Shown here in pieces: positions 1,302 through 22,220 of a stretch of DNA of 64,000 nucleotides. The translations under genes and the position numbers were made by a program. A model generated the notes under the pieces. The model ran no database searches, was not told the DNA's origin, and saw nothing but the letters and a program-made list of their open reading frames with translations. The DNA comes from a virus. The stretch covers positions 30,134 through 94,133 of IMG/VR virus record IMGVR_UViG_3300042453_004683, one strand, 5' to 3'. The number at the start of each line of letters is the position of its first letter. Within the stretch, counting starts at the first letter, position 1.

Positions 1302-1302
1302 T

Positions 1303-1875: not shown

Positions 1876-1979
1876 CGACGACGATCCTCTGGTGAGGGGA
1901 GCCGTTGCCTAACCCGGCTTGACGCCCGGCGCCTCCCGCGGTAGTCGTGTGGTGTTCCTGTCCAGGAGGATCTACGTCG

Positions 1980-2852
1980 ATGTCCCGCCGCCGAAACACC
2001 AAGTACTCGCCCGCACATGCTCCCCCGCCGCCTTCTCCAGAGGCGATCGCGGCGCAGGAGGCGCGCGTCGCTGAGATCTCGGCCGCAGCGTCCGCCGCGA
2101 AGGCGATCTACGACCGTGGTCCCCTCGCCGTCAGTGAAGGGATGTTCGAGTCGCCTCAGACGCGTGTGGATCAGGTCGCGCACTTCGCACGGTCGCGGAC
2201 GTTGTTCCGCATCCCGAACTACCAGCGCGAGAGCGTGTGGACCGCCGAGCAGGCGCGGCATTACGTCTCGGACGTGTTCTGCGGCAACCGCCCTGCGGGA
2301 GTGTTCGTCTTCCGCGAGCGGTCGATCCGCTACAAGGACAACCCGAACAGCGTCCGTGTGCTCGACGTGCTGGACGGCCAGCAGCGGCTCCTGGCGATGG
2401 GCGCGCCGTGCTTCCGCGGGACGGTGGAGGACATCGCCAACCTCCGCGCTCAGCCAGTGTTCGGGCCCGCGCCGTGGTTCGACTTCGAGGCGACAGACTA
2501 CGACAAGTCCTGGCGTGCGACGCCGGCAGACGCGCAGCACGATCTGTCTCGGCTCCTGGACGAGAATATTCGCGACCACACGTTCGTGCCCAGTTGCGTG
2601 CCACTGTTCTACCTCGGCCACCACGCCTGGCGGAAGGCCGTGCGCAAGGACGGCGCTGCGTCGAACGCCCCGCTGGAGATGCGCGCCGCGCACGCATCCT
2701 CCGTGGTCAGCCGCATCAACCTGCTCCTGATCGTCCTCCCGCCGTCGATGCCGCTCGACGCGCTGCGGCTCTGGTTCCGCGCCATCAACAGCGGCGGCAC
2801 GCCGATGTCCGCCGAGGACCTGGAGCGCGCGTTGGCGGCCGACGGCGATTGA
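1980..2852 (+). CDS. stand-alone DUF262 (GmrS/ParB-like NTPase-fold) protein
   Basis: IPNYQRESVW, LDGQQRL and F..INSGGTPMS motifs; AGGAGG RBS; promoter at 1919-1947. Confidence 0.85.
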   Translation: MSRRRNTKYSPAHAPPPPSPEAIAAQEARVAEISAAASAAKAIYDRGPLAVSEGMFESPQTRVDQVAHFARSRTLFRIPNYQRESVWTAEQARHYVSDVFCGNRPAGVFVFRERSIRYKDNPNSVRVLDVLDGQQRLLAMGAPCFRGTVEDIANLRAQPVFGPAPWFDFEATDYDKSWRATPADAQHDLSRLLDENIRDHTFVPSCVPLFYLGHHAWRKAVRKDGAASNAPLEMRAAHASSVVSRINLLLIVLPPSMPLDALRLWFRAINSGGTPMSAEDLERALAADGD

Positions 2853-2909
2853 CGGGTTGCCCGCCGTGGGCGGCCGCGTTACGGGTGATGCGAGGAGATA
2901 CCTTCTACA

Positions 2910-3335
2910 ATGAGCCGCGCCCCTTCATTCCCGACGAACGCCTGGTGGGGCGCCGACGAGCTGACGCCGGACGGCCGCGAGCCGAAAGGTCGGATCGACG
3001 CGCCCTTCCTGATCACGCAGGACCACATGCGCGACCGGAAGCCGCTACCGCTCCCAGACGAGGTGCACGCCATCGTCGGCATCGTCCGCGAGTTCATGCG
3101 CCTGGAGCGCCAGCTCTTGAACGAGTCGCCCCTCGCGCGTCCGTCCGCCGCGCTCGACCTGGTGAAGCGTGGCTACATGGTCAAGGGACCTACAGGGCGG
3201 CTGTCGCTGACGCCGCTCGGGCGGATGATCCAGTGGCGCCTCGCGCAGCTCCGTGCGTACCAGCTCGGCCAGGAGATGCAGCAGGCGCCCGCCGACGTGG
3301 AAGCGTTCATGTCCGATGATGAGGAGAATATCTAA
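2910..3335 (+). CDS. hypothetical protein, possible winged helix
   Basis: LVKRGY...LSLTPLG wing-like motif; TAATG overlap with the next gene. Confidence 0.65.
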   Translation: MSRAPSFPTNAWWGADELTPDGREPKGRIDAPFLITQDHMRDRKPLPLPDEVHAIVGIVREFMRLERQLLNESPLARPSAALDLVKRGYMVKGPTGRLSLTPLGRMIQWRLAQLRAYQLGQEMQQAPADVEAFMSDDEENI

Positions 3336-4210
3336 TGCGTTGCCTTGAACTCTTTGCCGGCGCCGGCGGCGCAGCCATCGGTCTGGAGCGAGCCGGGCTG
3401 ACCCACGCTGCCCTCTGCGAGTGGGACCGCGCTGCATGCGCCACGCTGCGCGCTGCGGGGTTCGGCCCCGTCGTCGAGGGCGACGTGCGCGACATTGACG
3501 CCATCGCCGCCGCGGCGGGGCCCGAACCTATCGGGGCGATCTGGTCCTCTTTCCCCTGCCAAGCCTTCTCCGCCGCCGGGAAGCGCCTCGGCGCCGCCGA
3601 CGAGCGCAACGGGTGGCCGTGGACGGTGGACGCGATCGACCGCTTCCGCCCGACGTGGTTCCTTGGGGAGAATGTTCGCGGGCTGTTGTCGCCTCCTGGC
3701 AATTACCTTGCGCGTGTCATCCTGCCCGACCTGCACGCCCGGTTCGCGTGCGTCGGCTGGTGGCTACTCGACGCCGCCGACTACGGCGTGCCACAGCATC
3801 GGCGGCGGGTCATCCTCTGGGCAGGCCCGCGGCCGTTGGCGATGCCGGCGCCGACGCATGGGCTGGGTCGGCCGCTGCCGTGGGTGGGTGTCAGCGCCGC
3901 TTTGAGCGTCCCTCCTGGTGCGTTCGTTCAGTCAGGTATCTGCCGCTCGGACAAAGGCGGCAGAGGCGCCCCTCGCGAAGTCACTCGTCCGAGTCCGACA
4001 GTGTCAAGTTCCTCGCGGATCTACCTCCAGCGCGATAATGTCATCCGCGCACTGACTCCAAGCGAACACGCGGTGCTTCAGGGCTTTCCTCCGTCTCATC
4101 CATTCAAGGGCACAAAGGCGCGCGTGCACCGGCAGATCGGGAACGCTGTGCCGCCTCTGCTCGCAGAGATGGTCGGGCGCGCTCTCTTGGAGGCTGATTG
4201 TGCGGTCTGA
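3335..4210 (+). CDS. C5-cytosine DNA methyltransferase
   Basis: ELFAGAGG, FPCQAFS, ENVRG, YGVPQHRRR, QIGNAVPP. Confidence 0.95.
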   Translation: MRCLELFAGAGGAAIGLERAGLTHAALCEWDRAACATLRAAGFGPVVEGDVRDIDAIAAAAGPEPIGAIWSSFPCQAFSAAGKRLGAADERNGWPWTVDAIDRFRPTWFLGENVRGLLSPPGNYLARVILPDLHARFACVGWWLLDAADYGVPQHRRRVILWAGPRPLAMPAPTHGLGRPLPWVGVSAALSVPPGAFVQSGICRSDKGGRGAPREVTRPSPTVSSSSRIYLQRDNVIRALTPSEHAVLQGFPPSHPFKGTKARVHRQIGNAVPPLLAEMVGRALLEADCAV

Positions 4211-4595
4211 CATACCTTCTATCCGCCATCGTATCCGCCAGCGCGTCGCCGATGGCCTGTACCGCGTGGCCGACGCCATCGGCGATCTCGCCGACCGCCT
4301 CGACGTGGAGGTCGACGACGAAGACGCCGATGGCGCTGAAGCCGCTGACGGCGATGCCCACGACAAGGACCCGATCGCGATCGCGCTGAAGGGTTGCGTC
4401 GAGATCCCGCACCCGTTACCGAAGGTGATGAGGGACCTCAACAAGCACTACACAGCCATGCAGATCGAAGGCTTCGTCGGCGCCTGGCGCCGGGCGAACG
4501 GGAAGATCCACATCGCCTTCGCCGCGCACGACGAGGCCCTCCTCGATCACCTCAACCGCCACCTCGGCCAAGCCATCGCAGGAATATACGAATGA
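4200..4595 (+). CDS. hypothetical protein with an acidic central patch
   Basis: Overlaps both neighbouring genes; GGAGG RBS. Confidence 0.65.
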   Translation: MRSDIPSIRHRIRQRVADGLYRVADAIGDLADRLDVEVDDEDADGAEAADGDAHDKDPIAIALKGCVEIPHPLPKVMRDLNKHYTAMQIEGFVGAWRRANGKIHIAFAAHDEALLDHLNRHLGQAIAGIYE

Positions 4596-5017
4596 CCTCC
4601 GAGCGCCTCTCCCTCCTTCCCTCTGCCATCCGTGATCGCCGCCGGCTCTCCACGACGAGCACGCTGGACACGCTCCCGGACGCGAACGTGCTGGCGGCGA
4701 TGCTCCGCGACGACCTCCGCGACGCGGGCCTCTTTGTCCGCGTCGGCGTGTGGCAGCCTGATGCGTCGTTGTACGGCAACTACCTGGTGCCGCCGGCGTT
4801 CGGCGGCGTCCACATCTACGCCAGTGACGCCAAGGACAGCCAGCCGGTCGCCTCCATTCTCCTCTGCACGGCCATTGTCATCGTGGTGACGCGGGCCGAC
4901 AACGTGACGACCCGCATCCCGTACGCCGGCCGCGGCTGGCTCGCGGCGACGAAGGCGGCCCTCGTGGCCGAGCACGTCGTCGACGCCCTGGCGACGATCA
5001 AGCCGGCGGGTGTGTGA
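4592..5017 (+). CDS. hypothetical protein
   Basis: ATGA overlap with the previous gene; codon bias. Confidence 0.65.
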   Translation: MTSERLSLLPSAIRDRRRLSTTSTLDTLPDANVLAAMLRDDLRDAGLFVRVGVWQPDASLYGNYLVPPAFGGVHIYASDAKDSQPVASILLCTAIVIVVTRADNVTTRIPYAGRGWLAATKAALVAEHVVDALATIKPAGV

Positions 5018-5078
5018 TGGTGGACTGCCGCGCCTCGCCGGGTTAGGCTGCCCGGCAGCGGAGGTAGGCCGCCCGCCC

Positions 5079-5378
5079 GTGTCCGACTTCACACGCTCTG
5101 TTGCCGCCGCCGTCCGGGAGCTCGAAAGCCCGGACGGCTGGTGCCGTTGTGAAGCGGCCGTACCGGCCGAGGACCGCATCGTCGCTCGCCTCGCCGCGCT
5201 CCTCGACCAGGAGGTGACGCCAGAGCTGGACCTGAACGCGCGCCGCGTCCTGGTCCGGCTGGCCTCCTACAGGGCGCTCCTCCACGAGGACGGTGCCTGG
5301 TCAAAGTCGCGCGCCGACGCGGGGAGGCGTCGGCGGCAACGTGAAGTCGAGGTGGTGGTCGTCAGGCGAAGAAGGTAG
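5079..5378 (+). CDS. hypothetical protein
   Basis: GGAGGT RBS upstream of a GTG start; basic C-terminus. Confidence 0.5.
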   Translation: MSDFTRSVAAAVRELESPDGWCRCEAAVPAEDRIVARLAALLDQEVTPELDLNARRVLVRLASYRALLHEDGAWSKSRADAGRRRRQREVEVVVVRRRR

Positions 5379-5391
5379 AGGCGCCCCACAT

Positions 5392-5955
5392 CTACCGCAT
5401 GTAGCGCGCCTGAAGCGCGCCGACGGCGCCGAGCAGGAACAGCAGCGCCTCGCCGAAGGGCGCGGGGCAGACCGTCCGCGTGAGCGTCTCCCCGGTGCGC
5501 GCCAGGTCCTTCGGCGCCCACTCCAAGGGCAACGGCACCTCGGAGTGCAGCAGTTGCCTCCCGAGCGTGTCCGCGTGGTGGGTGAAGTGGACGCGGCCAA
5601 CGGGCGCGCGGCCCGCCGCCGACTGCCAGGTGATGGACACAGACAACGGCCAGTCGCCGTCGTCGTCGGGGTCGGTCGTGGCGACGTTCTCGCGGAACCA
5701 GTAGGCGATCAACTCGACCAACTGGCCGGTCGTGAGCCACAGCGTCGTGTGGTCGAGGTAGTCGTGCGCCTTGACCTCGCCATCCTCGTCCGCCAGATCC
5801 ACCCGCAGGAGCGTCTGCGCGAGGGTGCTGTCGGGCGCACACGACAGCCGGGCGAGGTTGCCGTCGTCGCAGCCGACCACAATCAGCACGCAGTCAGGCA
5901 CGGCGAAGCAGTCGCTGGCCTCGTACCGGACGGTGACTTCGATGACGCGCGGCAT
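5392..5955 (-). CDS. hypothetical protein
   Basis: Codon bias; last gene of a minus-strand operon. Confidence 0.7.
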   Translation of the reverse strand: MPRVIEVTVRYEASDCFAVPDCVLIVVGCDDGNLARLSCAPDSTLAQTLLRVDLADEDGEVKAHDYLDHTTLWLTTGQLVELIAYWFRENVATTDPDDDGDWPLSVSITWQSAAGRAPVGRVHFTHHADTLGRQLLHSEVPLPLEWAPKDLARTGETLTRTVCPAPFGEALLFLLGAVGALQARYMR

Positions 5956-5957
5956 GT

Positions 5958-6275
5958 TCAGGCCCCCACGCGGGTGACGTGGCGACGAAGGGCCGTCGCG
6001 GCCGAGAACTTGATGTTGGCGCCGACGGTCGAGCCTTCGTCGGCGTCGACGAGGATGCGCGCGGCGCGCTGGAAGGTGCCGAAGCCGCGGAAGGTGACCG
6101 CCGCCTCGGCGATGTCCGGCTTCTGGAGTTGGGTCGAGATGATGCCGTGCTCGGGGTCGAACAGCGCCTCGACGATCTCGCTCGCGGCCGCGAGGTTGAG
6201 GTCGGGGATCCGCTCGGTCAGGAGGCGTGCGACGTCGCGCGCCATCAGGGACGTCGCGCCGGGGAGGCTGCTCAT
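5958..6275 (-). CDS. HU/IHF-fold DNA-binding-like protein with a shortened arm
   Basis: Two N-terminal helices, then VTFRGFGTF and IKFSAATALRRHV. Confidence 0.75.
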   Translation of the reverse strand: MSSLPGATSLMARDVARLLTERIPDLNLAAASEIVEALFDPEHGIISTQLQKPDIAEAAVTFRGFGTFQRAARILVDADEGSTVGANIKFSAATALRRHVTRVGA

Positions 6276-6739
6276 GTGGGGGTGTCCTGGATCTGGAGGC
6301 TGTGGACGCGGACGCCGATGGGCAGCAGGCGCGCGTCGTCCAGACGCACGCCCGGCTGCTCGGACTGGATGATATAGATGCGCAGGTCCTGGTCGACCTC
6401 GCCGACGCACCAGATACCGCGCCGGGTGAACTGCCAGTGGCTCACCGCGCGGCGCATCCCGAACGTGCCGGGCGAGATGCCGAGCACGTCGCGGTGCTCG
6501 TCCTGGATCTGCGGGTCGTAGCAGTTCGCGTCGACGAAGCCGATCGGGGAGACGAAGTACCGCAGCGCACGCGCCGTCTTCGGGTGGCGGATCAGGTCGT
6601 ACATCGTCCAGGTCGCGTACGGCAAGAGCGCCTTGCGGATGTCGTCCTCCGTGAGGAGGCGCCCGTCGACGACCAGCTTCAGCAGGTCCTCCGGGACCTC
6701 GTGGTCGACCGGGATCAGGCGCTTGCGAGACGGCTGCAT
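6272..6739 (-). CDS. hypothetical protein
   Basis: ATGA overlap with the HU-like gene; codon bias. Confidence 0.65.
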   Translation of the reverse strand: MQPSRKRLIPVDHEVPEDLLKLVVDGRLLTEDDIRKALLPYATWTMYDLIRHPKTARALRYFVSPIGFVDANCYDPQIQDEHRDVLGISPGTFGMRRAVSHWQFTRRGIWCVGEVDQDLRIYIIQSEQPGVRLDDARLLPIGVRVHSLQIQDTPT

Positions 6740-6826
6740 CTGGCTTCCGTGTCTGTGGGGCACGCCTCCGCTATCCCGCGTCGTCCTCGGCGTCAAGCGC
6801 CTGGATGTTCCGCTTGAAGTCGTTCA

Positions 6827-7405
6827 TCAGGTGACCACCTTGGCGAGCAGGTCGATCATCTCGTTGAGCGACACGCGCTTCGCGGGCAGCGAGTTGTCGG
6901 CGAGGATGGCGTCGATGTCGTCGGCGACCCCGTAGGCGCTGTCGAACGCGCCGCACGCGATCGTCTTGCGCAGTTCGATCAGGGCACGATGCACGTCGAA
7001 CAGCGTGGACAGGGCGACTACGCCCGCCTTGTCGAGCTGCCGCGCCTTGTCCGCCTTGGCGCCCTCCTCGTCGGCCATCCGCCAGACGTCGAGGAGCGCG
7101 TGCACGAGGGCGCGGCCGACGGTGGTGCCGTAGTACTCCTTTGGCGCGCGGTTGTAGGGGCGCACCAGGAACAGGTAGAGCCCCGCGCCGTCCACGGGAA
7201 ACACGCCGTCGACATCACGGGCGTGCGTTTCCAGGTGGCGCATCAGCGTGCAGTTGGCGTCGTAGCGGGCATAGTCCGCATCACGCATGTCCACCTGGTC
7301 GAGCGTCAGGGCGTCACCGCCCCAGCGCACGTCGGCGTTCAGCCGGTCGAGGTGCGCGTCCATGTCGGCCTCGAAGGCGGCGACGTCATCGGCGATGGTG
7401 CCCAT
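6827..7405 (-). CDS. hypothetical protein
   Basis: TGATG coupling to the upstream gene; codon bias. Confidence 0.7.
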   Translation of the reverse strand: MGTIADDVAAFEADMDAHLDRLNADVRWGGDALTLDQVDMRDADYARYDANCTLMRHLETHARDVDGVFPVDGAGLYLFLVRPYNRAPKEYYGTTVGRALVHALLDVWRMADEEGAKADKARQLDKAGVVALSTLFDVHRALIELRKTIACGAFDSAYGVADDIDAILADNSLPAKRVSLNEMIDLLAKVVT

Positions 7406-7788
7406 CAGGCACCGCCCTTAGCGGAGGTGCAGCCGCGCCAGGTGGCCTCGACGTGGGCGTCACCGTCCGCGTCGGTGTAGGCGTGCGTCTCGTAGAGGTG
7501 CTTGCCGTCCCACGCCGCGAGCTGGTAGGTGCACTCGGCGTCGCTGGGGGCCAGCGTGTTCGCGTCTTCGCTGTACTCGAAGACGCAGTTCGCGAACACC
7601 TCGATGACGACGCCGTTGGCCGTGGCGAGCTGCTCGTTGTCGTCGTCATCCCAGGAGACGTGATCCGCGATGGCGGCGCAGATGGCGTCGACGGCGGCCT
7701 GCGCGGTGAGGCCGCTGAAGCCGCCCACCTCGTCGAAAGCGTCGCACCAGGCGAAGAACATGTCGTCAGTGACGTAGGTACGGGGCAT
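7405..7788 (-). CDS. highly acidic small protein, candidate DNA mimic
   Basis: About 24 D/E versus 4 K/R in 127 aa; AGGAG RBS; first gene after the promoter at 7851-7817. Confidence 0.75.
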   Translation of the reverse strand: MPRTYVTDDMFFAWCDAFDEVGGFSGLTAQAAVDAICAAIADHVSWDDDDNEQLATANGVVIEVFANCVFEYSEDANTLAPSDAECTYQLAAWDGKHLYETHAYTDADGDAHVEATWRGCTSAKGGA

Positions 7789-7861
7789 CGAGGGGCTCCT
7801 GGTCGTTTGAGGTTACTCCACACACGTATCCGGATCGCCCGCCGCCGTCAACGCCTCGCCA

Positions 7862-7900
7862 GCAAAGAACAAGGGCCGGAGGCGTCGCCACCTCCAGCCC
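7862..7900 (-). terminator. intrinsic terminator
   Basis: GGGCTGGAGG/CCTCCGGCCC stem followed by TTGTTCTTT on the minus strand. Confidence 0.75.
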
Positions 7901-7922
7901 TGTCACAAGCGCGCCCCGAGAG

Positions 7923-8801
7923 CTACAGCTCCAGGCAGTTGCCGAGCGTGACCTCGTAGCTGTCGACGTTCCAGCCGCCGTCGAGGCCGCCGTCCCACCG
8001 CTGGCGCGCGCCGAAGCAGAGCGGGCCCTCGCCGCCGACGTCGACCGGTACGGTGACGTGCAGCCAGACCGAGCCGTCGACCAGCGAGTTCGGGAGCGGC
8101 TGCGTGTCGTAGGGGTCGCCGACCTCGCCGTACTCGACGTTCCAGATGTCGAGCGGGCGGTAGCCGCCGAGCGGGCCGGTGCCCTCCTCGCCGACGCCGC
8201 CGTCGGGGTCGCCCATCGGCCCCTCCTCGGGCATGTACTCCAGCAGCTCCTCCGCGGTCAGCGGGTCGCACTCCTCGGACCAGACCTCCAGGTCGAGGTC
8301 GGGGTCGCACTCCCCGAGCGGGTCGCTCGCGTCGCCGGACGCCCACCGCTCGACGTAGCGGTCCATCGGCGCGATGCTGATCATGCCGGGCTGGATGTTC
8401 TCGCCGTAGGGGTCGGCGAGGTAGTCCCACGGCGTCACCAGCAGGACCGCGGCCGGCCAGGCCACCTTGCCGCCGTGGAGCGCCATCCGCTCCATCCACG
8501 CCTTCGCGGCGGGCATGGAGGTGGCGGTGATCATCCGCGAGACGATGTGCTGGAGGGGCGACCGCAGGGCGGCCGGCGCGCGGCGGATCACCATGTTCAT
8601 CTCGGTGATCGCCATCGTGGCGCCGACGACGCGACCTTCCTTGAGGGCCTCCAGCGCCTTGCAGAAGATGGAGGACGTCTGTCCCGCCAGGCGGGCCAGC
8701 TCGGCCTCCTCGGCGGGCGTGATGGCGTGGGCGTCGCGCGGGACGATGGCTGCCGCGGTGAGGGTGATGGCGAGGGCCAGGGAGGGGATGATGGAACGCA
8801 T
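7923..8801 (-). CDS. secreted protein with signal peptide (moron-like)
   Basis: MRSIIPSLALAITLTAAAIVPRDAHA signal with an AxA cleavage site; own promoter TTGACG-N17-TACGAT (8896-8868) and own terminator. Confidence 0.8.
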   Translation of the reverse strand: MRSIIPSLALAITLTAAAIVPRDAHAITPAEEAELARLAGQTSSIFCKALEALKEGRVVGATMAITEMNMVIRRAPAALRSPLQHIVSRMITATSMPAAKAWMERMALHGGKVAWPAAVLLVTPWDYLADPYGENIQPGMISIAPMDRYVERWASGDASDPLGECDPDLDLEVWSEECDPLTAEELLEYMPEEGPMGDPDGGVGEEGTGPLGGYRPLDIWNVEYGEVGDPYDTQPLPNSLVDGSVWLHVTVPVDVGGEGPLCFGARQRWDGGLDGGWNVDSYEVTLGNCLEL

Positions 8802-8903
8802 GGGTGAGTACGTCTCCGGTTGGGTGTTCTACTGAGCCTGTTGGTCGCCCGACGTCCGGGCGGGTGCATCGTAGCCGGGCGGCTGTCAGCCGTCAACGGT
8901 CGA

Positions 8904-9389
8904 TCAGGTCATCTCGACGCGGGGGTCGAAGGCGGCGTTCCACACGCGCATGAGCGCCCGCGCGAGTGCGACGCCCTCGATCGGGTGCCTGCTCAGCAGC
9001 TCGCCGGCATCGCCGAGGGCGTCGCGCACGATGAACGCGCGGAACTCGCCGTCCTCGAACACAGGCAGGCAGACGTACCGCGGGCTCGCGCGGCGGAGCA
9101 TCGCGGCGACGTGTCCCGTCGAGGCGGGGCAGAGCAGATCGGGGTAGGTGCCGGGCTTGACCCATCCGCCTCGGCCGTTGACGTGGAGCGCGTGGGCGAG
9201 TTCGACGCCAACGTACATGCAGTGGATGCGCACCTGCTCGCGTAGCACCTCCAGCGCGCCGTCGCGGGTGTCCGCCGCATCTGCGCCGCTCACGGCGATC
9301 TCTCCAACGGACGCAGCCCATCGCCCGCGGCCGTCCTCCCACACGTCGATGAAGGGCGGGTCGGTGTCATCCGTGCGTACATCATCCAT
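8904..9389 (-). CDS. hypothetical protein with a HicB-like N-terminus
   Basis: EDGRGRWAASV...DTRDGALEVLREQV resembles the HicB N-terminal fold. Confidence 0.55.
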   Translation of the reverse strand: MDDVRTDDTDPPFIDVWEDGRGRWAASVGEIAVSGADAADTRDGALEVLREQVRIHCMYVGVELAHALHVNGRGGWVKPGTYPDLLCPASTGHVAAMLRRASPRYVCLPVFEDGEFRAFIVRDALGDAGELLSRHPIEGVALARALMRVWNAAFDPRVEMT

Positions 9390-9625
9390 CAGTCCCTCCA
9401 CTGAGCCGTCTGGAAGATGCCTGCCACGTAGTCACCCGCGGGCGCGAGGTCACCGACCTGGTGAAGCCCGTACTTGGCGAACTCGGTGAGAACCCGCGGC
9501 ATGTTGTGCTTCGGCGCGATCAACGCGACGCGCCACTGATCGACCGCCTTGTGGGTGACGCTGCACGAGAACGCCAGTTCCTTGCTGAGGTCTTCGATGG
9601 CGTCGTGCAGGTTCCCGAACGACAT
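9389..9625 (-). CDS. hypothetical protein
   Basis: TGATG-coupled on both sides. Confidence 0.65.
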   Translation of the reverse strand: MSFGNLHDAIEDLSKELAFSCSVTHKAVDQWRVALIAPKHNMPRVLTEFAKYGLHQVGDLAPAGDYVAGIFQTAQWRD

Positions 9626-9864
9626 CAGGCACCCCGCTTGGCGAGCTGGGCGCGGAGCCTGGCGACCTCGGCCTCCAACTCGGTCACGCGGTTGATGGAG
9701 GCGACGGACCAGACGCGCTCCTGCCGCGCGTCGTTGTCGACGAGGCGCTGCTTCAGGTCGAGCCAGGACGACTTGCGGTCGCCCGAGTTCGTCGGGAGGT
9801 CACGCTTGCGGCAGATCGCCGCCAGTTCCAGCCAGTTCATGCCATCGTAGATGCTTTCCATCAC
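9625..9864 (-). CDS. small SAP/HeH-like protein with a coiled coil
   Basis: ELAAICRKRDLPTNSGDRK...LKQRL pattern. Confidence 0.55.
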   Translation of the reverse strand: MMESIYDGMNWLELAAICRKRDLPTNSGDRKSSWLDLKQRLVDNDARQERVWSVASINRVTELEAEVARLRAQLAKRGA

Positions 9865-9870
9865 AGTACC

Positions 9871-10134
9871 TCAGTCCTTGTCGATGTTGTAGACGGTCTC
9901 GGTCGTCACGGTGTAGCTGGTGACCGACTTGTCGGGCGCGAGCACCCACACGCGGACCGCCTCGGCTTCGTACATGCCGACGAGGTAGTCCTGCGCGGCC
10001 TGGAGGGCCAGGTCCTGGACGCTCTGGCCGGAGGCGCGGTGCTCGCGCTCGCCGAGCCGGCAGATGTCCACCCCGTCGAGGGTGCAGGCGGTGTTGTCGG
10101 TCACGAAGATGAAGTAGGTGTTGTCCGTGATCAT
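9871..10134 (-). CDS. hypothetical protein
   Basis: AAGGAG RBS; promoter at 10234-10205. Confidence 0.65.
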   Translation of the reverse strand: MITDNTYFIFVTDNTACTLDGVDICRLGEREHRASGQSVQDLALQAAQDYLVGMYEAEAVRVWVLAPDKSVTSYTVTTETVYNIDKD

Positions 10135-10230
10135 GGCGTTCCAGGGCTCCTTCTCGGTTGTTGCAGGGCGGCGGCTTTGTTGTTCACGCCGGCCGCCTGC
10201 CACAGCAGTAACCGGGCGGCGCCCCAGGCG

Positions 10231-10455
10231 TCAAGGTTCCTTCGCGATCCCAGCCAACTTCGCGTCCAGCGCGACCTTCCCGTGCATCCGCGCGCGGATG
10301 AGGAGAACGCCCTCCGGCAGCGTCGGCGTCCGCGCCACCTGCTCGTGGAGGGACGCGAGCTGATGCGCCAGGAGACGCAGGCGGTAGTGCGTCTCCTTGA
10401 TCCAGTGGTAGGTGGACAGCAGCGTCAGGTAGATAGCAAGGCGGATGAACAGCAT
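10231..10455 (-). CDS. small membrane-anchored protein
   Basis: Hydrophobic N-terminus; coupled to the upstream gene. Confidence 0.55.
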   Translation of the reverse strand: MLFIRLAIYLTLLSTYHWIKETHYRLRLLAHQLASLHEQVARTPTLPEGVLLIRARMHGKVALDAKLAGIAKEP

Positions 10456-10802
10456 CAACCATCCATGCGCTTGCGGGCGCGGTTGTAGGCAGCGGTCACC
10501 TTGGCCTCGAAGGTGCCACGGCCGATGACGATGGGGCTGCGGATGGCGACGTTGCTCCGCGCGTACTTGGCGATGTACGTCGCGAGCACGTTGGCGTCGT
10601 CAATGGCCTGCACGGCACGCTCACGCCACAGGTCGCGCTCGCGGGCGAGGAAAGCCACCTCATCCTGCAAGCGCCGCACGTCGGCGTCCGTAGGGGACAC
10701 GCCGATCACGCCCGGGATCGCGCCCAGGTCGGCCATCACGGGCCGGTTGTGATCGACGGCGCCGAGGTCGCGCACCTGGTCACGGCCGATGGCGACACTC
10801 AC
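10455..10802 (-). CDS. hypothetical protein
   Basis: GGAGG RBS; GTGA overlap. Confidence 0.65.
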   Translation of the reverse strand: MSVAIGRDQVRDLGAVDHNRPVMADLGAIPGVIGVSPTDADVRRLQDEVAFLARERDLWRERAVQAIDDANVLATYIAKYARSNVAIRSPIVIGRGTFEAKVTAAYNRARKRMDG

Positions 10803-10990
10803 TTGTCACCTCCGGCGATCAGCGCCTCAAGCTCGGCGACACGAGCCTCCAGCGCGCGGACCTGCGCCGCACGCTCGCGTGCGAGGTTGAGGTAGGTCAC
10901 CGCGTCGTCGCGCGCGGCCGCCTGGGCGCGGATGGCCTTGGCGAGGCGCCGGTGCAGACGAGCGACTTCGAGCAGTTCTTCCACGGTCAT
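10799..10990 (-). CDS. small coiled-coil protein
   Basis: AGGAG RBS; promoter TTGACG-N17-TACGTC at 11065-11037. Confidence 0.65.
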   Translation of the reverse strand: MTVEELLEVARLHRRLAKAIRAQAAARDDAVTYLNLARERAAQVRALEARVAELEALIAGGDK

Positions 10991-11274
10991 CGGGCTCTCC
11001 TGTGTGAGCGGCGTTGAGTGCCGCGACCACGCCAACGACGTAGCAAGGTGCCCGCCAGCCGTCAAGCAGCCCAGCTCGTCCAGGTGCGGTAGCCACATAC
11101 CAACGCCGTCAGGTGGTCCTCCATCAGTATGTTTACCACCCCCTCCGCTGCTCTTTGGCCGGAAAGAGTCAACGCGCCACTACGCACGCCGCTACGCATT
11201 ACACGCCGCCCGCCGTACGCGCGAGTACGGTGAACACGCCAGCCGCTACAAACCGCAACACGGCCAAAGAAGGC

Positions 11275-11440
11275 TGGGCAGCGGCGAAAGTTGACAGGTG
11301 GGCGCAGGATACCGCTCATGTTCTGCGAGAATGCGTCAGGGGTCTATCGTAGGGTATATAATCGAAATCGCCGAGAACGTGGTAACGAGCGGCGATCTCA
11401 CCGCCGGGGGTGATCCACTATCCTCCTAAGATCCTATAGA
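11275..11440 (-). repeat. dispersed modular non-coding element, copy A
   Basis: GATCTTAGGAGGATAGTGGATCA (11433-11411), identical to 29880-29902; two TCGCCGC boxes 108 bp apart. Confidence 0.85.
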
Positions 11441-11579
11441 CCCGTGCGCCCTGGATCGCGTCCGGCGTGGACCCCGTAGGGCGGGAGCCGGGAGGCTACC
11501 GGGCTATGACCTGGCCGGCTGGGTCATGTGCAAGCGGTAGAAGGGGCGGCTGAGACATAGGACATGAAGTCAACTGGTG

Positions 11580-12240
11580 CAAGGGGTGTAAGTCAGAAGA
11601 AGGGGTCGGGGTGGTGCGCGGCAGCGCACCGGGGGGCGCGACCGGGGGGCCTGGTGGCGGCGCGGCAGGCGGCGGGCGCGCTTGTGGGTGGGGTGCGGGG
11701 TTGTGCGGGGGGCGCCCGCTACCCGGCGGGGGGTGCGCGCTTCCCCTCCCGTCAGGCGGTGTGGCGCGTGGTAGACCGTGCCCCGTCTCACCCACGGTCG
11801 GCGGGCGCGCGGCGGCGGCCCGGACCCGCGGGGTCCTACGCTGCTCACCCCGTGAGGGACCGCGGGGCAGGGCAGGGGAAGAAGGGGTCAGGGTCGGCGG
11901 CGGGCGGGCGGGCGGGCGCCCCGGGCCCCGGGCCTGCGGGCGGACGTGGCCCGTGCTCGCACGCTACGGGCCCCAGGAGGCGCGTTGCCCCGGCGGGCGG
12001 GCCAGCGGTCGGGCCCCGGCGGGCGGCGCCTGGAAAGGGGCTTCCCGTGCAAGCGCGGGCGTCGGTGGTAGCCCCTACGTCAGACGGCTACCCGGAACGC
12101 GAGAAAGCCCCGACGGGCGGACCGTCGGGGCAGGCGGGGCAGGCGAGGTCAGGCGGGCGCGCGGCGGGCGGGCGGGCGGGCGGGCGCCCGCGGCGGCTAC
12201 GGGCGACGGGCGGCGGGCGACGGGCCCGGGGTCTCAGCAA
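11580..12240 (+). other. strongly G-skewed non-coding tract with (GGGC)n runs
   Basis: GGGCGGGCGGGCGGG at 11902-11916 and 12166-12184; no credible CDS. Confidence 0.65.
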
Positions 12241-12691
12241 CCCACGTCAGGAGGGCCAGCCCGACAAGCGCGGCGGCGCCAGCGCCCGACCCTGCGAGGG
12301 CGAACCACGGGATCGCGATCGCAAGGGCCAGCGTGCACGCTGCCCCGACGGCGGGCCCGGCGGCATCGGCCATCGTCGCGCCCGCGGCATCGGCCCAGCG
12401 CCCGAAGGCGCGGCGGGCCAGCGCCAGCGCCCCGACGACACCCCCCGCGGCGGCCCCGGCGGTCCGGGCGGCGGCCCCGATCGCCTTGCGGGGCGTGGTC
12501 CGGGCGGACGCGATCACGCGCTGACCGCGGGCCCCGTTCGGGCGGCGGCGGGAGATGACGATCGCGCACTCGATGTCAGCGCAGACGGTCCAGAGCCCGA
12601 CGACGGCGGCAACCGCGAGGGCCAGCGGCGCCAGCGCGAGACAGGCGAGGGAGGCGAGGGTCAAGGCGAGGGCGGCGGGGACGAGCAGCAT
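12197..12691 (-). CDS. membrane protein
   Basis: GGAGTG RBS as in the early genes; several Ala/Leu hydrophobic helices. Confidence 0.6.
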   Translation of the reverse strand: MLLVPAALALTLASLACLALAPLALAVAAVVGLWTVCADIECAIVISRRRPNGARGQRVIASARTTPRKAIGAAARTAGAAAGGVVGALALARRAFGRWADAAGATMADAAGPAVGAACTLALAIAIPWFALAGSGAGAAALVGLALLTWVAETPGPSPAARRP

Positions 12692-12902
12692 TGTAGGCAC
12701 TCCAAGTTGAGGGGCGGCGGCGCGCCCCGGGGGAACACTCGCCACGTAATGCGGCATCGGATCCGGGCAAGGCGAGATTAGCGCACAAGCGACGGAAAGT
12801 TGAAAGCGTCGGGCGGGCGGGCGCTTTCGACGATCGGCGGGCGGAGTGTTCACCGCTTTCACCGTTATATCTGTAGGGCCCGACGGCGGGCGGCGGGTGG
12901 TC

Positions 12903-13177
12903 CTCGAGAAGCTCGAGCCTATCGGCATTCTCGAGAATGGGATCCTCGAGCGGCGCGCGGCTGGGCTCGAGCGGCGGCGGGGTCAGCTCGCGAGCGGGTC
13001 AGCTCGACAGACGGGCGGGCGGAACTCGACACTCGACACGGGCGGGCGGGCTCGACACTCGGATCGCCCCCAAGTACTGCGACCAGGTTGTGTACCTGTA
13101 TCTTATGCTGCAACGCAGCATGACCATAAACGATGGATCACCTTGCTCTATGGATCGCGCTGATCGGCATTCTCGAC
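12903..13177. repeat. CTCGAG/CTCGAC cluster
   Basis: CTCGAG at 12903, 12912, 12930, 12945, 12966; CTCGAC at 13003, 13025, 13032, 13051, 13172. Confidence 0.9.
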
Positions 13178-13243
13178 AATCGAGGGTCGGCCCTATGCTG
13201 CAACGCAGCATGACGGGCCAGGTCCTATGCTGCACCGCAGCAT
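13105..13243. promoter_or_regulatory. three 17-bp palindromes ATGCTGC-A(A/C)C-GCAGCAT (PhaR-type operator)
   Basis: Copies at 13105-13121, 13195-13211 and 13227-13243. Confidence 0.75.
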
Positions 13244-13327
13244 GACGGCTGGAAGGTCGAGAACGTCGGCCCTATGCGGATCGTAGCGGTTTCTATCGCT
13301 TGCCTACAAATATCTGCCCCGCTCCCC

Positions 13328-13356
13328 TTGGCGGCGGCGAGCGCCCGCCATATGAT
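13328..13356 (+). promoter_or_regulatory. early sigma70-type promoter
   Basis: TTGGCG-N17-TATGAT; upstream AAATATCT also precedes the promoter at 16426. Confidence 0.75.
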
Positions 13357-13428
13357 GTCTGTGCCACCCAGCGGCGCGCCCGACGCGCCCGCTCCCCTCC
13401 CCTCCCCTCCCCCTCCGGAGTGTGCCCC

Positions 13429-13740
13429 ATGACCGATCCCGCGCTTGACCCCCGCTGCTCCTCCTGGACCTTCAATGCGGACGGTACGCTGACCGTCCGG
13501 GCCCCCGCGGGGCAGGAGCGCCCCATTCGGGCCCTCATGGCGGCTATGGGCTACGTCTGCCCCATCGTGGAAGACATGCCCGATGGTAGCGTGCTCATGC
13601 ACGATTCCCGCGCGATTGTCGAGATCTTCAATGACTGGCCCGTCAGCGGCCGCCGGTGCGACCCCGACCCCGAGGCCCCCGGCGGGCCGTGGTATGACGG
13701 CCCGGATCGCTGCGTGGTCGACGTGCTCAACCGCTACTGA
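13429..13740 (+). CDS. early hypothetical protein
   Basis: GGAGTGTGCCCC-ATG start signal. Confidence 0.75.
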   Translation: MTDPALDPRCSSWTFNADGTLTVRAPAGQERPIRALMAAMGYVCPIVEDMPDGSVLMHDSRAIVEIFNDWPVSGRRCDPDPEAPGGPWYDGPDRCVVDVLNRY

Positions 13741-20224: not shown

Positions 20225-20878
20225 ATGCCCGCCGACGCCCTTTCCATCGTGGTCCGCCTCACCGCCGCCGCTCTCCAGTACGGTGAGCGGATCGCCTTCC
20301 GCGCCGTCGTCCTGCCGTTGCTTGACGGCACCTTCATCCTCGCCACGTTCGACCGGCGGACCGTGGCGCTCACCCTCGCCGACGCCGAGCAGGCGGCCCT
20401 TGCCGCCGAGGGTGACGGCGCATGGCAGGACATCCCCGACGCCGAGCGTGACCCGGACAGCCTCCCGCTGGACAGCCTGCTCGGCATGGTCCGCGCCTCC
20501 GCCGTGGCCGACTGGGACGTGCTTTCGCGCGTGGCCGTGGCCGCCGGTCGTGCGCTCGTTATCCCCGGCGCGCTGGTCGGCGCGGATGACTGGGCCCACC
20601 CGTGCTGGCCCGACCTGCGCGCGCTGCTCGTCGACGCGGTGACGGTGGAGACGCCGAGCGGGTACACCTACGCCACCCCCGGAACGCCGGTCGCCGACAA
20701 GCCGATCGCCAGCGTCAGCGCGTGCGACGAGGGCGGCGTCGACATCTGGCACACCGTCGCCGGCAAGGCCGCCGTCGTCCGCATCATGGCGCTGCGCGGC
20801 TACGCGCCCTGCTACGAGCACGCGCCCGCCTCCCGCGCGGACGGTCTGATCATGACCGCGTGGCGCTGGATCGGCTGA
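20225..20878 (+). CDS. early hypothetical protein (paralog 2)
   Basis: TGTCAGGAGCTACC-ATG. Confidence 0.7.
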   Translation: MPADALSIVVRLTAAALQYGERIAFRAVVLPLLDGTFILATFDRRTVALTLADAEQAALAAEGDGAWQDIPDAERDPDSLPLDSLLGMVRASAVADWDVLSRVAVAAGRALVIPGALVGADDWAHPCWPDLRALLVDAVTVETPSGYTYATPGTPVADKPIASVSACDEGGVDIWHTVAGKAAVVRIMALRGYAPCYEHAPASRADGLIMTAWRWIG

Positions 20879-20967
20879 AGAATAACAGCACAATCTCCCT
20901 TGCCGGTCGGCGGTGAGGGAGATACAAGAATGGAAACCCCGCCCCCACCGCCGGCGCTGGAGATACG

Positions 20968-21318
20968 ATGCTCACCATTGACGACTACCGCCGCACCGTC
21001 GGCTTCATCGCAGGAAACCTGCGGCATATCTGCCGCGGCGGTTTCATCCGCAGCACCGAGGGGTTGCGCGAGGCTGCCGAGCACGCGGTTCAGATGTCCC
21101 GCTGCTTCCACAACCCCGACAACGCGATCAAGGTCCTCGGCTTCTCCGGCAACGCGGACGCCGCCGAGGACGCGCTCGGCTGGAGCGGACTGGTCGCGGG
21201 CTGCCGCTCCTTCGACGAGCTGGTACACCGCAAGGCATACTATGCCTTGCTCGCCGATGTCGAAGCTCTGCTCGTGGACATCACCTTCGACGAGGAGGCG
21301 GCCGATGCCTCCGCGTAA
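20968..21318 (+). CDS. T7 Ocr (gp0.3)-like anti-restriction candidate
   Basis: 116 aa; LRHICRGGFIRSTEGLREAAEHA aligns without gaps to Ocr [23 protein letters not shown] (recalled sequence); ED..SGL and Y..L..D also present; own promoter at 20900-20928. Confidence 0.65.
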   Translation: MLTIDDYRRTVGFIAGNLRHICRGGFIRSTEGLREAAEHAVQMSRCFHNPDNAIKVLGFSGNADAAEDALGWSGLVAGCRSFDELVHRKAYYALLADVEALLVDITFDEEAADASA

Positions 21319-21853
21319 GAAGAAGCCAGCGGCACCGCCGCCCGCACCTGCCCCGCCCCCCGCTGTCCAGCGGCCCGCCGCGCCGAAGCCGCCCGCCTTC
21401 ATCCCGCCCTCCCCGTGGCGGCGGTTCGACCCGCTCTGCCACGTCACCCTCGGCCTCGACCGGCTGACCTTCGGGTCGGCGGCCGATGCCTCCTGGGCGG
21501 CCGAGCGGGTGGTGTCAGCGCACCCCGACCTCCCCGCCGACGTGGTGGATCTCCTCCGCACGCTGGCCGATGACATCGGCCGGTGGGATGCGGCCCTCGT
21601 CGACGCCGCCGAGGCTGTCAACGAGGCAGAGGACCGGGCGGAGAAGGCCAACGACGCTGCGGCGATCCACGCCGCCGCTTCGAGCAGCACGATCGATGAA
21701 CTGAACGAGGAGATCGGTAAGCTCCGCAGCGCCGAAGACAGGTACGGTGAGCAGATTGACGACCTCGCCGAGCAGGTCGACACCCTGCGCGCCGAGCGTG
21801 ACGCCGCCCGGCAGGTCCTCGCAGACATGCTTCGCCACGCCGGCCTCGTGTGA
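21305..21853 (+). CDS. Pro-rich/coiled-coil hypothetical protein
   Basis: GAGGAGG RBS. Confidence 0.7.
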   Translation: MPPRKKKPAAPPPAPAPPPAVQRPAAPKPPAFIPPSPWRRFDPLCHVTLGLDRLTFGSAADASWAAERVVSAHPDLPADVVDLLRTLADDIGRWDAALVDAAEAVNEAEDRAEKANDAAAIHAAASSSTIDELNEEIGKLRSAEDRYGEQIDDLAEQVDTLRAERDAARQVLADMLRHAGLV

Positions 21854-21929
21854 GATTATCTGGTCCAGGTACTTGCGGGTTTCGCCCGGACCAGATACAA
21901 CGATGGAAACCCCGCCTGGAGTTCTCGCC

Positions 21930-22220
21930 ATGCAGACCGACACCCCGGCCGTCCCCGCCGATGTCCTCGACCGCGCCCGCGCCCTCGCGCGTGGCAGCTA
22001 CCAGCGCAGCCTCCTCGACGGCTACGCCCGCTGGTCGGGCGCCGACCTGCGCGGCGCCGCGAAGCGGTGGAGCGGGCGGTACGCCGCCTCCCGCTCCGGC
22101 CTGTTCCGCCGCCTGCGCAAGGCGGGCCTCGACGTGGCCGTGCGCTACGTCACCACGTCCAACAACCGGCAGGCCGTCGCGCTCTGCCTGGCGGGCGTGC
22201 CCGTCAGCGCGGTACCGTAG
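21930..22220 (+). CDS. basic hypothetical protein
   Basis: TGGAG RBS; promoter at 21873-21901. Confidence 0.7.
   Translation: MQTDTPAVPADVLDRARALARGSYQRSLLDGYARWSGADLRGAAKRWSGRYAASRSGLFRRLRKAGLDVAVRYVTTSNNRQAVALCLAGVPVSAVP

What the first reader, a model, noticed from the sequence alone, without database searches (positions are those of the whole stretch)
12903..13177. Five CTCGAG sites in 69 bp in a genome that otherwise seems to lack CTCGAG
Seen: CTCGAG occurs at 12903, 12912, 12930 (inside the perfect palindrome CATTCTCGAGAATG), 12945 and 12966, followed by five near-cognate CTCGAC. My manual scan found on the order of 100 CTCGA[A/C/T] elsewhere but no other CTCGAG. Leu-Glu is written CTGGAG, CTTGAG or CTCGAA instead, although CTC and GAG are favoured codons. 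Inference: the site is a host restriction target (XhoI/PaeR7I-type) purged genome-wide but deliberately kept near the putative genome end. Possible roles are a sacrificial decoy for the restriction enzyme, a methylation-gated pac site like the GATC-containing repeats of P1 pac, or use of the host enzyme to create ligatable ends.
Basis: partly seen in the sequence, partly recalled or inferred. Interest (0 to 1): 0.85.

Follow-up and report, generated by a model that had tools for sequence, protein, structure and literature searches.

The report
Purged XhoI sites kept in repeats
An uncultured ~95-kb phage has removed the restriction-enzyme word CTCGAG from its whole genome except for five copies inside a short repeat array in its main early control region, and its one known relative keeps its single copy at the same place. 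So a DNA-level signal there appears to outweigh the cost of being cuttable.

Summary
CTCGAG occurs five times in the 94,133-bp contig, all at window 12903-12971, against 50-57 expected. None of 106 Leu-Glu dipeptides is written CTC-GAG (43.5 expected).

CTCGAG is only one of about 15 purged six-base palindromes, and CTAG is absent altogether. That is ordinary restriction avoidance, although very strong.

The five sites are the left half of a degenerate array of about eight units (G-tract plus CTCGA[G/C]) spaced about 21 bp apart on average. The array lies in a 738-bp divergent intergenic region, upstream of a conserved sigma-70-type promoter. It sits beside one of the three most AT-rich spots in the genome and three unique palindromes.

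The only reachable relative (96.6 kb, DNA polymerase 74% identical) has one CTCGAG in its whole genome. It lies in the homologous intergenic region, inside a shared 17-mer, CGGGCGGGCGGGCTCGA.

My best reading is a cis-acting array of protein-binding sites (operator or origin type) whose core happens to form an XhoI-type site. It was kept by functional constraint and amplified by local duplication.

The decoy, pac-site and genome-end ideas are not supported. The array is not conserved while the terminase is, it lies 23 kb from the terminase gene, and half its units are CTCGAC, which is not the CTCGAG word.

The parts
12903..12971 (.). Left sub-array: the five CTCGAG sites (12903, 12912, 12930, 12945, 12966). 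Includes the 14-bp palindrome CATTCTCGAGAATG (12926-12939). All five sites are in one triplet phase.
12972..13063 (+). Right sub-array: GCTCGCGAGC palindrome (12982-12991), then CTCGAC units at 13003, 13025, 13032 and 13051, and CTCGGA at 13058. Two 27-bp tandem units ACGGGCGGGCGGAACTCGACACTCGAC, containing 7-bp ACTCGAC doublets.
13039..13055 (+). Best conserved copy of the unit, CGGGCGGGCGGGCTCGA. It is identical to the relative's L008:1489-1505. The next base is C here and G in the relative, where it forms that phage's only CTCGAG.
12809..12900 (+). Leftward continuation: G-tract units (GGGCGGGCGGGCG...TTCGAC), the direct repeats TGTTCACC/CTTTCACC (12846-12864) and TATATCTGT (12866-12874). 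Together with the first CTCGAG sites this forms a module, CTCGAG-N13..27-ACAGATATARCGGTG, which the relative carries in the opposite orientation.
13091..13150 (.). AT-rich segment (45% GC in a 69% GC genome), one of the three most AT-rich 60-mers of the contig, directly right of the array.
13105..13243 (.). Three copies of the palindrome ATGCTGC-N3-GCAGCAT (13105, 13195, 13227), found nowhere else in the genome.
13155..13180 (+). Dispersed second copy of the ATCGGCATTCTCGA[G/C]AAT unit (85% identical to 12913-12938). It carries CTCGAC instead of CTCGAG.
13328..13356 (+). Sigma-70-type promoter candidate, TTGGCG-17-TATGAT, for the rightward early genes. The relative has TTGGCA-17-TATGCT at the same place. 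A C-rich leader (CTCCC x4, 13392-13412) and the ribosome-binding site GGAGTGTGCCCCATG follow.
12197..12691 (-). Left flanking gene, a 164-aa predicted membrane protein. It is 39% identical to the protein at the same position in the relative, which anchors the positional homology of the intergenic region.
13429..13740 (+). Right flanking gene, the first rightward early ORF (103 aa). No Pfam or PHROG family, and not detectably homologous to the relative's first gene.

Best explanation
The five CTCGAG sites are half of a degenerate array of about eight short units. Each unit is a G-rich tract followed by the core CTCGA(G/C), and the average spacing is about 21 bp. The array sits in the 738-bp divergent intergenic region from which the phage's leftward and rightward early gene blocks start. 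I read it as a cis-acting array of binding sites for a sequence-specific DNA-binding protein that is not yet identified. It could be an operator array for early transcription or the iteron part of an origin; the data do not separate the two. The protein reads CTCGA plus the G-tract. When the next base is G, the unit also forms an XhoI/PaeR7I-type restriction site. Selection has removed that word everywhere else, including all 106 Leu-Glu codon pairs, but it cannot remove the word here without damaging the element. The ancestor had at least one such unit, and this lineage amplified it by local tandem duplication. Shown: the purge, the clustering, the array structure, the position, and the conservation of the unit and its place in the relative. 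Inferred: protein binding, the functional constraint, and the duplication history.
For: (1) Purge: 5 CTCGAG observed against 50-57 expected, all within 69 bp. CTC-GAG encodes 0 of 106 Leu-Glu dipeptides against 43.5 expected. About 15 other palindromes are co-purged in both phages, with lineage-specific differences. (2) Array: CTCGA/TCGAG density is 14 per 200 bp against a genome mean of 0.85, the highest in the contig. Tandem units of 21 and 27 bp were found. Spacings between units are 27, 15, 21, 18, 19, 22 and 26 bp, mean 21.1, from the coordinates. (3) Non-coding control region: divergent genes flank it, coding potential is low, and a promoter conserved in the relative lies downstream. (4) Conservation: the relative (DNA polymerase 74% identical) has a single CTCGAG in 96,570 bp. 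It lies in the 447-bp homologous intergenic region (chance about 0.5%), inside the shared 17-mer CGGGCGGGCGGGCTCGA and next to the shared ACAGATATARCGGTG block. The rest of the region has diverged beyond alignment. (5) The constraint acts on DNA, not on a protein. A coding Leu-Glu could be rewritten CTG-GAG at no cost, as happened everywhere else, and the overlapping ORF has no homologue. (6) The five G-type units are contiguous, as are the following C-type units, and the repeat copies are 80-92% identical. Both fit local duplication.
Against: No binding protein has been identified. All flanking genes lack Pfam and PHROG families. The array is not conserved in copy number: the relative has one unit, so most copies here may be dispensable. 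The flanks of the CTCGA cores vary and the spacing is irregular, which is looser than classical iterons. Five cuttable sites should be costly if hosts with a CTCGAG enzyme are still met, and nothing here shows how that cost is avoided. Only two genomes could be compared. No read-level or expression data could be obtained.
Confidence: 0.55

Rival explanations
1. Replication origin. The G-tract-CTCGA units are iterons for a phage initiator, the adjacent AT-rich segment is the unwinding element, and the three palindromes are auxiliary sites, as in the lambda ori layout (iterons, then an AT-rich region, then a palindrome). This is a special case of the best explanation, singled out because it makes different predictions.
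For: About eight units at roughly two helical turns. 13091-13150 is among the three most AT-rich 60-mers of the genome. Unique palindromes lie next to it. The direct repeats TGTTCACC/CTTTCACC at 12846-12864 contain the same 8-mer as the annotated type-1 ori repeats of phage P4, and the relative has two TGTTTCACC there. The site sits between divergent promoters, as in transcription-activated phage origins (established knowledge for lambda and T7).
Against: No initiator gene is adjacent. The helicase, DUF927 protein and polymerase lie 13-27 kb away, and the DUF927 protein shows no similarity to P4 alpha. The replication proteins are conserved in the relative but the array is not. The GC-skew flip at this point is explained by the strand switch of the genes. 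AT-richness is also expected of a promoter region.
Confidence: 0.15
2. Neutral minisatellite. One tolerated ancestral CTCGAG in a conserved element was copied by replication slippage in a non-coding, duplication-prone stretch. The extra sites have no function and persist because the present host population rarely carries a CTCGAG enzyme.
For: Copy number differs between the two phages (five against one). Tandem and dispersed duplicates are 80-93% identical. Like units are contiguous. The surrounding 22-kb block is the most variable part of the genome and holds 6 of the 11 other surviving purged-palindrome sites, which suggests a weaker or younger purge there.
Against: Both lineages have zero CTCGAG outside this region despite deep divergence and 55-68 expected, so selection against the word has persisted. 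Words that have truly relaxed in this lineage, such as GACGTC (91 here against 2 in the relative), have returned to expected numbers genome-wide, whereas CTCGAG has not. All five spacings being multiples of three is not explained by this reading.
Confidence: 0.15
3. A restriction-modification-centred function: a decoy for the enzyme, a methylation-gated packaging (pac) site like P1 pac, or a way to make ends with the host enzyme.
For: The layout of five palindromic hexamers followed by five near-cognates recalls the seven TGATCA/G hexamers of P1 pac (from established knowledge, not tested here). The word is clearly under restriction-type selection.
Against: The cluster is 23 kb from the terminase and portal genes. 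The structural and terminase block is about 72% identical in DNA between the two phages, yet the relative has only one CTCGAG and no array. CTCGAC units are not the CTCGAG word. The best conserved unit is CTCGAC here. Five sites cannot titrate an enzyme, and a cut there would still break the genome. The contig ends and the relative's circular assembly give no sign of a physical end here.
Confidence: 0.05
4. A small gene. The ORF at 12846-13163 (105 aa) reads all five sites in frame as Leu-Glu (VVLEKLEPIGILENGILERRAAGLERRR), so the cluster would be a coding repeat.
For: All four spacings are multiples of three (chance about 1 in 81). GC by codon position is 0.80/0.47/0.80 over 12860-12979. The codon-usage score is mildly positive there.
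Against: There is no proper start: the GTG overlaps GGAG with no spacer. The second half of the ORF scores as non-coding. There is no Pfam family and no homologue in the relative in any frame. In the relative the conserved module reads CTCGAG in another frame, with no start codon. Coding would not explain retention, because CTG-GAG is used for Leu-Glu everywhere else. The positive score is partly circular, because CTC and GAG are favoured codons.
Confidence: 0.07

Closest known systems
Restriction-site (palindrome) avoidance in phage genomes
   Same: Strong depletion of CTCGAG and about 15 other six-base palindromes, synonymous codon shifts, and different purge lists in two related phages.
   Different: The purge is nearly absolute, yet one word survives only as a tight cluster inside a cis-element. 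The usual description of avoidance does not cover sites held in place by a conflicting function.
Iteron arrays of replication origins (lambda ori; phage P4 ori/crr type-1 repeats TGTTCACC)
   Same: Several short repeats at about two helical turns, an adjacent AT-rich segment and nearby palindromes. An exact TGTTCACC plus a CTTTCACC direct repeat lies at the edge of the array.
   Different: The units are degenerate and irregularly spaced. No initiator gene is adjacent, no P4 alpha homologue was found, and origin activity is untested.
P1 pac site (hexamer repeats carrying Dam GATC sites)
   Same: Repeated hexamers that contain the target word of a restriction-modification-type methyltransferase, arranged in two groups.
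   Different: Not in or near a terminase gene, and not conserved in a relative with a conserved terminase. Half the hexamers lack the palindrome, and no cleavage or methylation data exist.
Operator or centromere arrays of ribbon-helix-helix proteins (omega repressor heptads of pSM19035, ParR iterons)
   Same: Very short cores (5-7 bp) repeated in direct and palindromic arrangements with variable number, including adjacent 7-bp ACTCGAC doublets, upstream of promoters.
   Different: This is a resemblance from established knowledge only. No RHH or HTH protein was identified nearby.

Membership tests
Restriction-driven palindrome avoidance | Observed count far below the Markov expectation for the word | tested here: met
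   5 against 50-57 expected, and 0 outside the array. The relative has 1 against 57-68.
Restriction-driven palindrome avoidance | Avoidance achieved by synonymous codon choice | tested here: met
   CTC-GAG 0 of 106 Leu-Glu against 43.5 expected; CTG-GAG 73 against 40.6.
Restriction-driven palindrome avoidance | Several unrelated palindromes purged, with lineage-specific lists | tested here: met
   About 15 words in both phages. GACGTC is 91 here against 2 in the relative, TCGCGA 27 against 0, GCATGC 1 against 27.
Restriction-driven palindrome avoidance | Host carries a cognate CTCGAG enzyme | not testable with these tools
   Host unknown. The thymidylate synthase search gave mixed phyla, and there are no cultured relatives.
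P1-type pac site | Lies in or next to the terminase genes | tested here: not met
   The large terminase subunit is at genome 18672-20426 and the portal at 20439-22136. The cluster is at genome 43036, 23 kb away.
P1-type pac site | Conserved among relatives that share the terminase | tested here: not met
   The structural and terminase block is 72% identical over 13 kb, but the relative has one CTCGAG and no array.
P1-type pac site | Packaging cuts or termini at the site; methylation dependence | not testable with these tools
Iteron-type replication origin | Three or more direct repeats in helical phase | tested here: inconclusive
   About eight units with mean spacing 21.1 bp, but a range of 15-27 bp and degenerate flanks.
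Iteron-type replication origin | Adjacent AT-rich unwinding element | tested here: met
   13091-13150 has 45% GC and ranks in the top three of the genome.
Iteron-type replication origin | Initiator gene adjacent or overlapping | tested here: not met
   Flanking genes have no family. Replication genes lie 13-27 kb away.
N4-type hairpin early promoters (considered for the three palindromes beside the array) | 5-7-bp stem with a 3-nt loop, in several copies | tested here: met
   ATGCTGC-N3-GCAGCAT occurs three times.
N4-type hairpin early promoters (considered for the three palindromes beside the array) | Giant virion RNA polymerase encoded | tested here: not met
   The 3,822-aa protein has no PDB or PHROG match to a virion RNA polymerase. 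Its nearest ESM Atlas clusters carry polyvalent-protein LPD domains (a weak lead).

The most novel reading that the evidence does not exclude
The array is a sensor that couples early gene control to the modification state of the incoming DNA. The palindromic CTCGAG units would be bound, or not, by a regulator depending on whether the previous host's CTCGAG methyltransferase marked them, while the CTCGAC units would be bound constitutively. The phage would then learn in the first minutes which restriction background it came from and adjust its anti-restriction programme (four methyltransferases and a giant polyvalent protein). Alternatively, a protein injected with the DNA occupies the array and shields this single weak point. 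Nothing tested here excludes either version, and nothing supports them beyond the two-type layout of the units.
Probability: 0.06. Interest if true: 0.85.

Novelty: new variant of a known kind. Interest (0 to 1): 0.45.

Why it matters
This is a clean natural example of a conflict between two selective forces on a phage genome: restriction avoidance and the need for a fixed cis-acting DNA word. The surviving sites mark a functional element that no annotation would find, in a phage lineage with no cultured relatives. They also mark the one place where this otherwise site-free genome can be cut by a CTCGAG enzyme. The general point is that leftover sites of purged words can be used to locate control elements or origins in uncultured phages. 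The finding does not change what is known about restriction or packaging.

Tried and rejected
- **Read-level support and termini.** I have no coverage data, no termini and no independent assembly of the region.
- **More relatives.**
  - The polymerase, the polymerase alignment and the membrane-protein alignment, searched against viral contigs, all returned the same single relative.
  - The right-flank protein and the palindrome pattern returned nothing.
  - Metagenome hits do not cover the region and their records are not held.
  - Megablast and blastn searches against phage and plasmid collections found nothing.
  - The capsid protein has no match in cultured phages.
- **RNA genes.** No Rfam family, tRNA or convincing terminator was found in 10.5-14.5 kb.
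- **Structure.** The array does not fold better than shuffled sequence (z = -0.5). The palindrome stretch folds only mildly better (z = -2.3).
- **N4-like reading of the hairpins.** Rejected, because no virion RNA polymerase was found.
- **Phage methyltransferase protecting CTCGAG.** Rejected by argument. Words that are truly relaxed in this lineage have returned to expected numbers, and CTCGAG has not. The methyltransferase specificities could not be read from PDB relatives.
- **Host inference from thymidylate synthase.** Uninformative.
- **Literature.** Searches for retained clusters of purged sites and for the P4 iteron word gave nothing usable. The P4 word was checked on the annotated record instead.
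- **Sigma-70 reading of CTCGACA as a -35 element (TCGACA).** No matching -10 lies at the proper spacing, judged by eye.

Full report
**What the sequence is**

The window is bases 30134-94133 of a 94,133-bp IMG/VR virus contig with 69% GC. It encodes:
- a major head protein, large terminase subunit and portal;
- a family A DNA polymerase with a UDG-like N-terminus, an intein-containing ribonucleotide reductase, thymidylate synthase, DHFR and helicases;
- four DNA methyltransferases and a GmrSD_N protein.

There is no close cultured relative.

One related genome could be reached: IMGVR_UViG_3300034072_001395, 96,570 bp, with DNA polymerase 74% identical. Its 127-bp end overlap points to a circular assembly. 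The two genomes are collinear. The ends of this contig fall inside a giant gene that is intact in the relative (3,822 aa). So the contig is a nearly complete genome and its ends are an assembly break, not physical termini. CheckV's 48% completeness estimate is therefore probably too low.

**The observation**

- CTCGAG occurs five times, at window 12903, 12912, 12930, 12945 and 12966, and nowhere else in the genome.
- The expected count is 50-57 under Markov orders 1, 2 and 4.
- In called genes, none of 106 Leu-Glu dipeptides is written CTC-GAG, although 43.5 are expected from codon usage. CTG-GAG takes the excess.
- Outside the array, CTCGA is never followed by G (0 of 193). Inside it, 5 of 10 are (p = 9e-8).
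- A TCGAG-rich coding repeat, (GTCGAG)n at about 45.1 kb, holds no CTCGAG. This is a useful internal control.

**Context of the purge**

CTCGAG is one of about 15 purged six-base palindromes:

| Word | Observed | Expected |
|---|---|---|
| AGGCCT | 0 | 44 |
| CCATGG | 0 | 36 |
| AGCGCT | 0 | 36 |
| CACGTG | 0 | 34 |
| CAGCTG | 0 | 29 |
| CTGCAG | 0 | 20 |
| ACGCGT | 1 | 54 |
| GAGCTC | 1 | 39 |
| GCATGC | 1 | 32 |
| TGGCCA | 2 | 36 |
| TCCGGA | 3 | 37 |

. CTAG is 0 against 103 expected.

The relative shows the same purge with its own differences:

| Word | This phage | Relative |
|---|---|---|
| GACGTC | 91 | 2 |
| TCGCGA | 27 | 0 |
| GTGCAC | 10 | 0 |
| GCATGC | 1 | 27 |

This is the signature of restriction avoidance tuned to different host enzyme sets. 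Words that one lineage no longer avoids have returned to expected numbers there. CTCGAG has not returned in either lineage, so selection against it has persisted in both.

**What the cluster is**

The cluster lies in a 738-bp non-coding region (12692-13428) between two divergent genes:
- a leftward gene for a 164-aa membrane protein (12197-12691);
- the first rightward early ORF (13429-13740).

This is the spot with the highest CTCGA/TCGAG density in the genome, at 14 per 200 bp against a mean of 0.85.

The sites form a degenerate array. G-rich tracts (GGGCGGGCGG and variants) are each followed by CTCGA(G/C). Tandem units of 21 bp (12945-12990) and 27 bp (13011-13061) are present. From left to right the array contains:
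- five palindromic CTCGAG units;
- the palindrome GCTCGCGAGC;
- CTCGAC units, twice as adjacent 7-bp doublets.

If doublets are counted as one unit, the spacings are 27, 15, 21, 18, 19, 22 and 26 bp. The mean is 21.1 bp, about two helical turns.

To the right of the array lie:
- one of the three most AT-rich 60-mers of the genome (13091-13150);
- three copies of a palindrome found nowhere else, ATGCTGC-N3-GCAGCAT;
- a second, degenerate copy of the ATCGGCATTCTCGA(G/C)AAT unit;
- a sigma-70-type promoter candidate, TTGGCG-17-TATGAT, at 13328-13356.

To the left lie the direct repeats TGTTCACC/CTTTCACC and TATATCTGT.

**The relative**

The relative's whole genome holds one CTCGAG. It lies in the positionally homologous 447-bp intergenic region. 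That homology rests on three features:
- the left gene is 39% identical;
- the promoter hexamers and their 17-bp spacer are conserved;
- the C-rich leader is conserved.

A single random site would land there with a probability of about 0.5%.

The region as a whole no longer aligns, but short blocks survive:
- CGGGCGGGCGGGCTCGA, 17 of 17 bases, continuing with G in the relative and C in this phage;
- GGGCTCGAGC;
- GAAGCTCGAGCC;
- a composite module, CTCGAG-N13..27-ACAGATATARCGGTG, which is inverted between the two phages relative to the flanking genes;
- the TTTCACCG direct repeats.

So a G-tract-CTCGA unit is ancestral and has been kept while everything around it changed. The many copies are specific to this lineage.

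**How it most likely works**

The retained feature acts at the DNA level. If the sites were only coding for Leu-Glu, they could be rewritten at no cost, as happened at every other Leu-Glu in the genome.

The conserved part is CTCGA with its G-tract, not the palindrome, because the best conserved copy is CTCGAC here. That points to a sequence-specific DNA-binding protein, phage or host, that reads CTCGA-type units. The units lie between the two early promoters and next to an AT-rich segment, so the array is either an operator-type array or the iteron part of an origin.

The XhoI-type site is a by-product of the unit whenever the sixth base is G. In this view the CTCGAC units are the restriction-safe form of the same element. 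The contiguous block of CTCGAG units arose by local duplication of one retained palindromic unit.

I give this reading 0.55 in its general form. Within it, the origin version is scored separately at 0.15.

What remains unexplained:
- how the phage bears the cost of five cuttable sites;
- why all five sites share one triplet phase.

**Rivals**

- **Neutral minisatellite (0.15).** This fits the copy-number difference and the high turnover of the surrounding 22-kb variable block. That block holds 6 of the 11 other leftover purged sites. It does not fit the persistent zero elsewhere.
- **Small ORF, 12846-13163 (0.07).** It reads all five sites as Leu-Glu and has a mild coding signal. It has no proper start, no homologue and no explanatory power for the retention.
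  - The cluster is 23 kb from the terminase gene.
  - The array is absent from a relative whose terminase block is conserved.
  - Half the units are CTCGAC, which is not the CTCGAG word.
  - There is no evidence of a genome end here.
- **N4-type hairpin promoters.** This was considered for the three palindromes and dropped, because the giant protein shows no similarity to a virion RNA polymerase.

**Limits**

- Only two genomes could be compared.
- The host is unknown.
- Reads, termini, methylation and transcription could not be examined.
- The resemblances to lambda ori, P1 pac and omega-type heptad operators come from established knowledge and are leads, not tests.
- The identity of TGTTCACC with the P4 type-1 ori repeat was checked on the annotated P4 record. 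It rests on two copies only and on no alpha homologue.

**Verdict**

- Observation: confirmed.
The purge and the non-random retention hold. The genome end and the proposed roles do not.
- The finding is a new variant of known things, namely restriction avoidance meeting a cis-element, and is of moderate interest.
I did not test it.

Noticed in passing
whole genome (window 1-64000 and G000:C1:1-30133); relative G001: CTAG is completely absent (0 against 103 expected) in both phages, and GANTC is rare (46 each). The two phages differ sharply in some purged words: GACGTC is 91 here against 2 in the relative, TCGCGA 27 against 0, and GCATGC 1 against 27. This suggests different host enzyme sets or different self-methylation.
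   Followed up: partly
window 435-1301 (+), 1947-2852 (+), 3335-4210 (+), 38942-39871 (+), 47303-48250 (-): Four DNA methyltransferases (N6_N4, two C5, and a D12 Dam-like) plus a GmrSD_N/DUF262 protein. The relative has the N6_N4 enzyme and one C5 enzyme. The extra C5 enzyme here may relate to the words relaxed in this lineage.
   Followed up: partly
L009:2780-14248 (-) in the relative; window 58614-63905 (-) and G000:C1:2-4240 (-) here: A giant 3,822-aa ORF, split by the contig ends in this genome (about 2.6 kb missing). It has no PDB or PHROG match. The nearest ESM Atlas clusters carry polyvalent-protein LPD, ART-PolyVal and MuF_C domains (score 0.83, a weak lead), so it may be an injected anti-defence protein like P1 DarB.
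   Followed up: partly
window 1092-13414: Six of the 11 surviving sites of other purged palindromes lie in this 12-kb stretch of the variable block, and 20 of 41 in the relative's matching block. The early variable region is less purged than the rest, which is the opposite of the early-region purges noted elsewhere in this scan.
   Followed up: partly
window 13105-13243: Three copies of ATGCTGC-N3-GCAGCAT (7-bp arms) occur only here, 85 bp or more upstream of the conserved promoter. They are probably operators for a dimeric regulator. The relative has none.
   Followed up: partly
window 12846-12864; L008:1390-1420: The direct repeats TGTTCACC/CTTTCACC (TGTTTCACC twice plus an inverted copy in the relative) contain the same 8-mer as the annotated type-1 ori/crr repeats of phage P4. 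No P4 alpha homologue was found.
   Followed up: partly
window 11099-12196: A 1.1-kb stretch without coding signal. An AT-rich part (57% GC, 11240-11420) is followed by 600 bp at 80-88% GC with GGGC repeats able to form G-quadruplexes at 11902 and 12166. A (CTCCC)4 run at 13392-13412 gives a G4 motif on the minus strand.
   Followed up: no
window 11411-11433 (+), about 29880-29902 (-), about 53617 (-): The 23-nt element TGATCCACTATCCTCCTAAGATC is repeated exactly at two loci, and its first 14 nt occur at a third. At two of them it is preceded by GGGCAGCGGCGAA-GTTGACA. It contains a DnaA-box-like TGATCCAC. It could be a promoter or an origin element.
   Followed up: partly
window 13417, 13841, 14164, 14806, 15229, 16502: Early genes share an extended start sequence, GGAGTGT(T/G)(C/T)CC-N-ATG. 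A copy without a start codon lies at 12843, at the left edge of the array.
   Followed up: partly
window 48642-52829 (-): The ribonucleotide reductase alpha gene is interrupted by an intein with a LAGLIDADG homing endonuclease domain.
   Followed up: no
window 45090-45250: Coding repeats (GTCGAG)n, giving (Val-Glu)n, and (GACACC)n, giving (Asp-Thr)n, inside the 978-aa SMC/AAA_23-like protein.
   Followed up: no
window 12903-12966: All five CTCGAG sites share one triplet phase (spacings 9, 18, 15 and 21 bp). This is not explained by the binding-array reading.
   Followed up: partly
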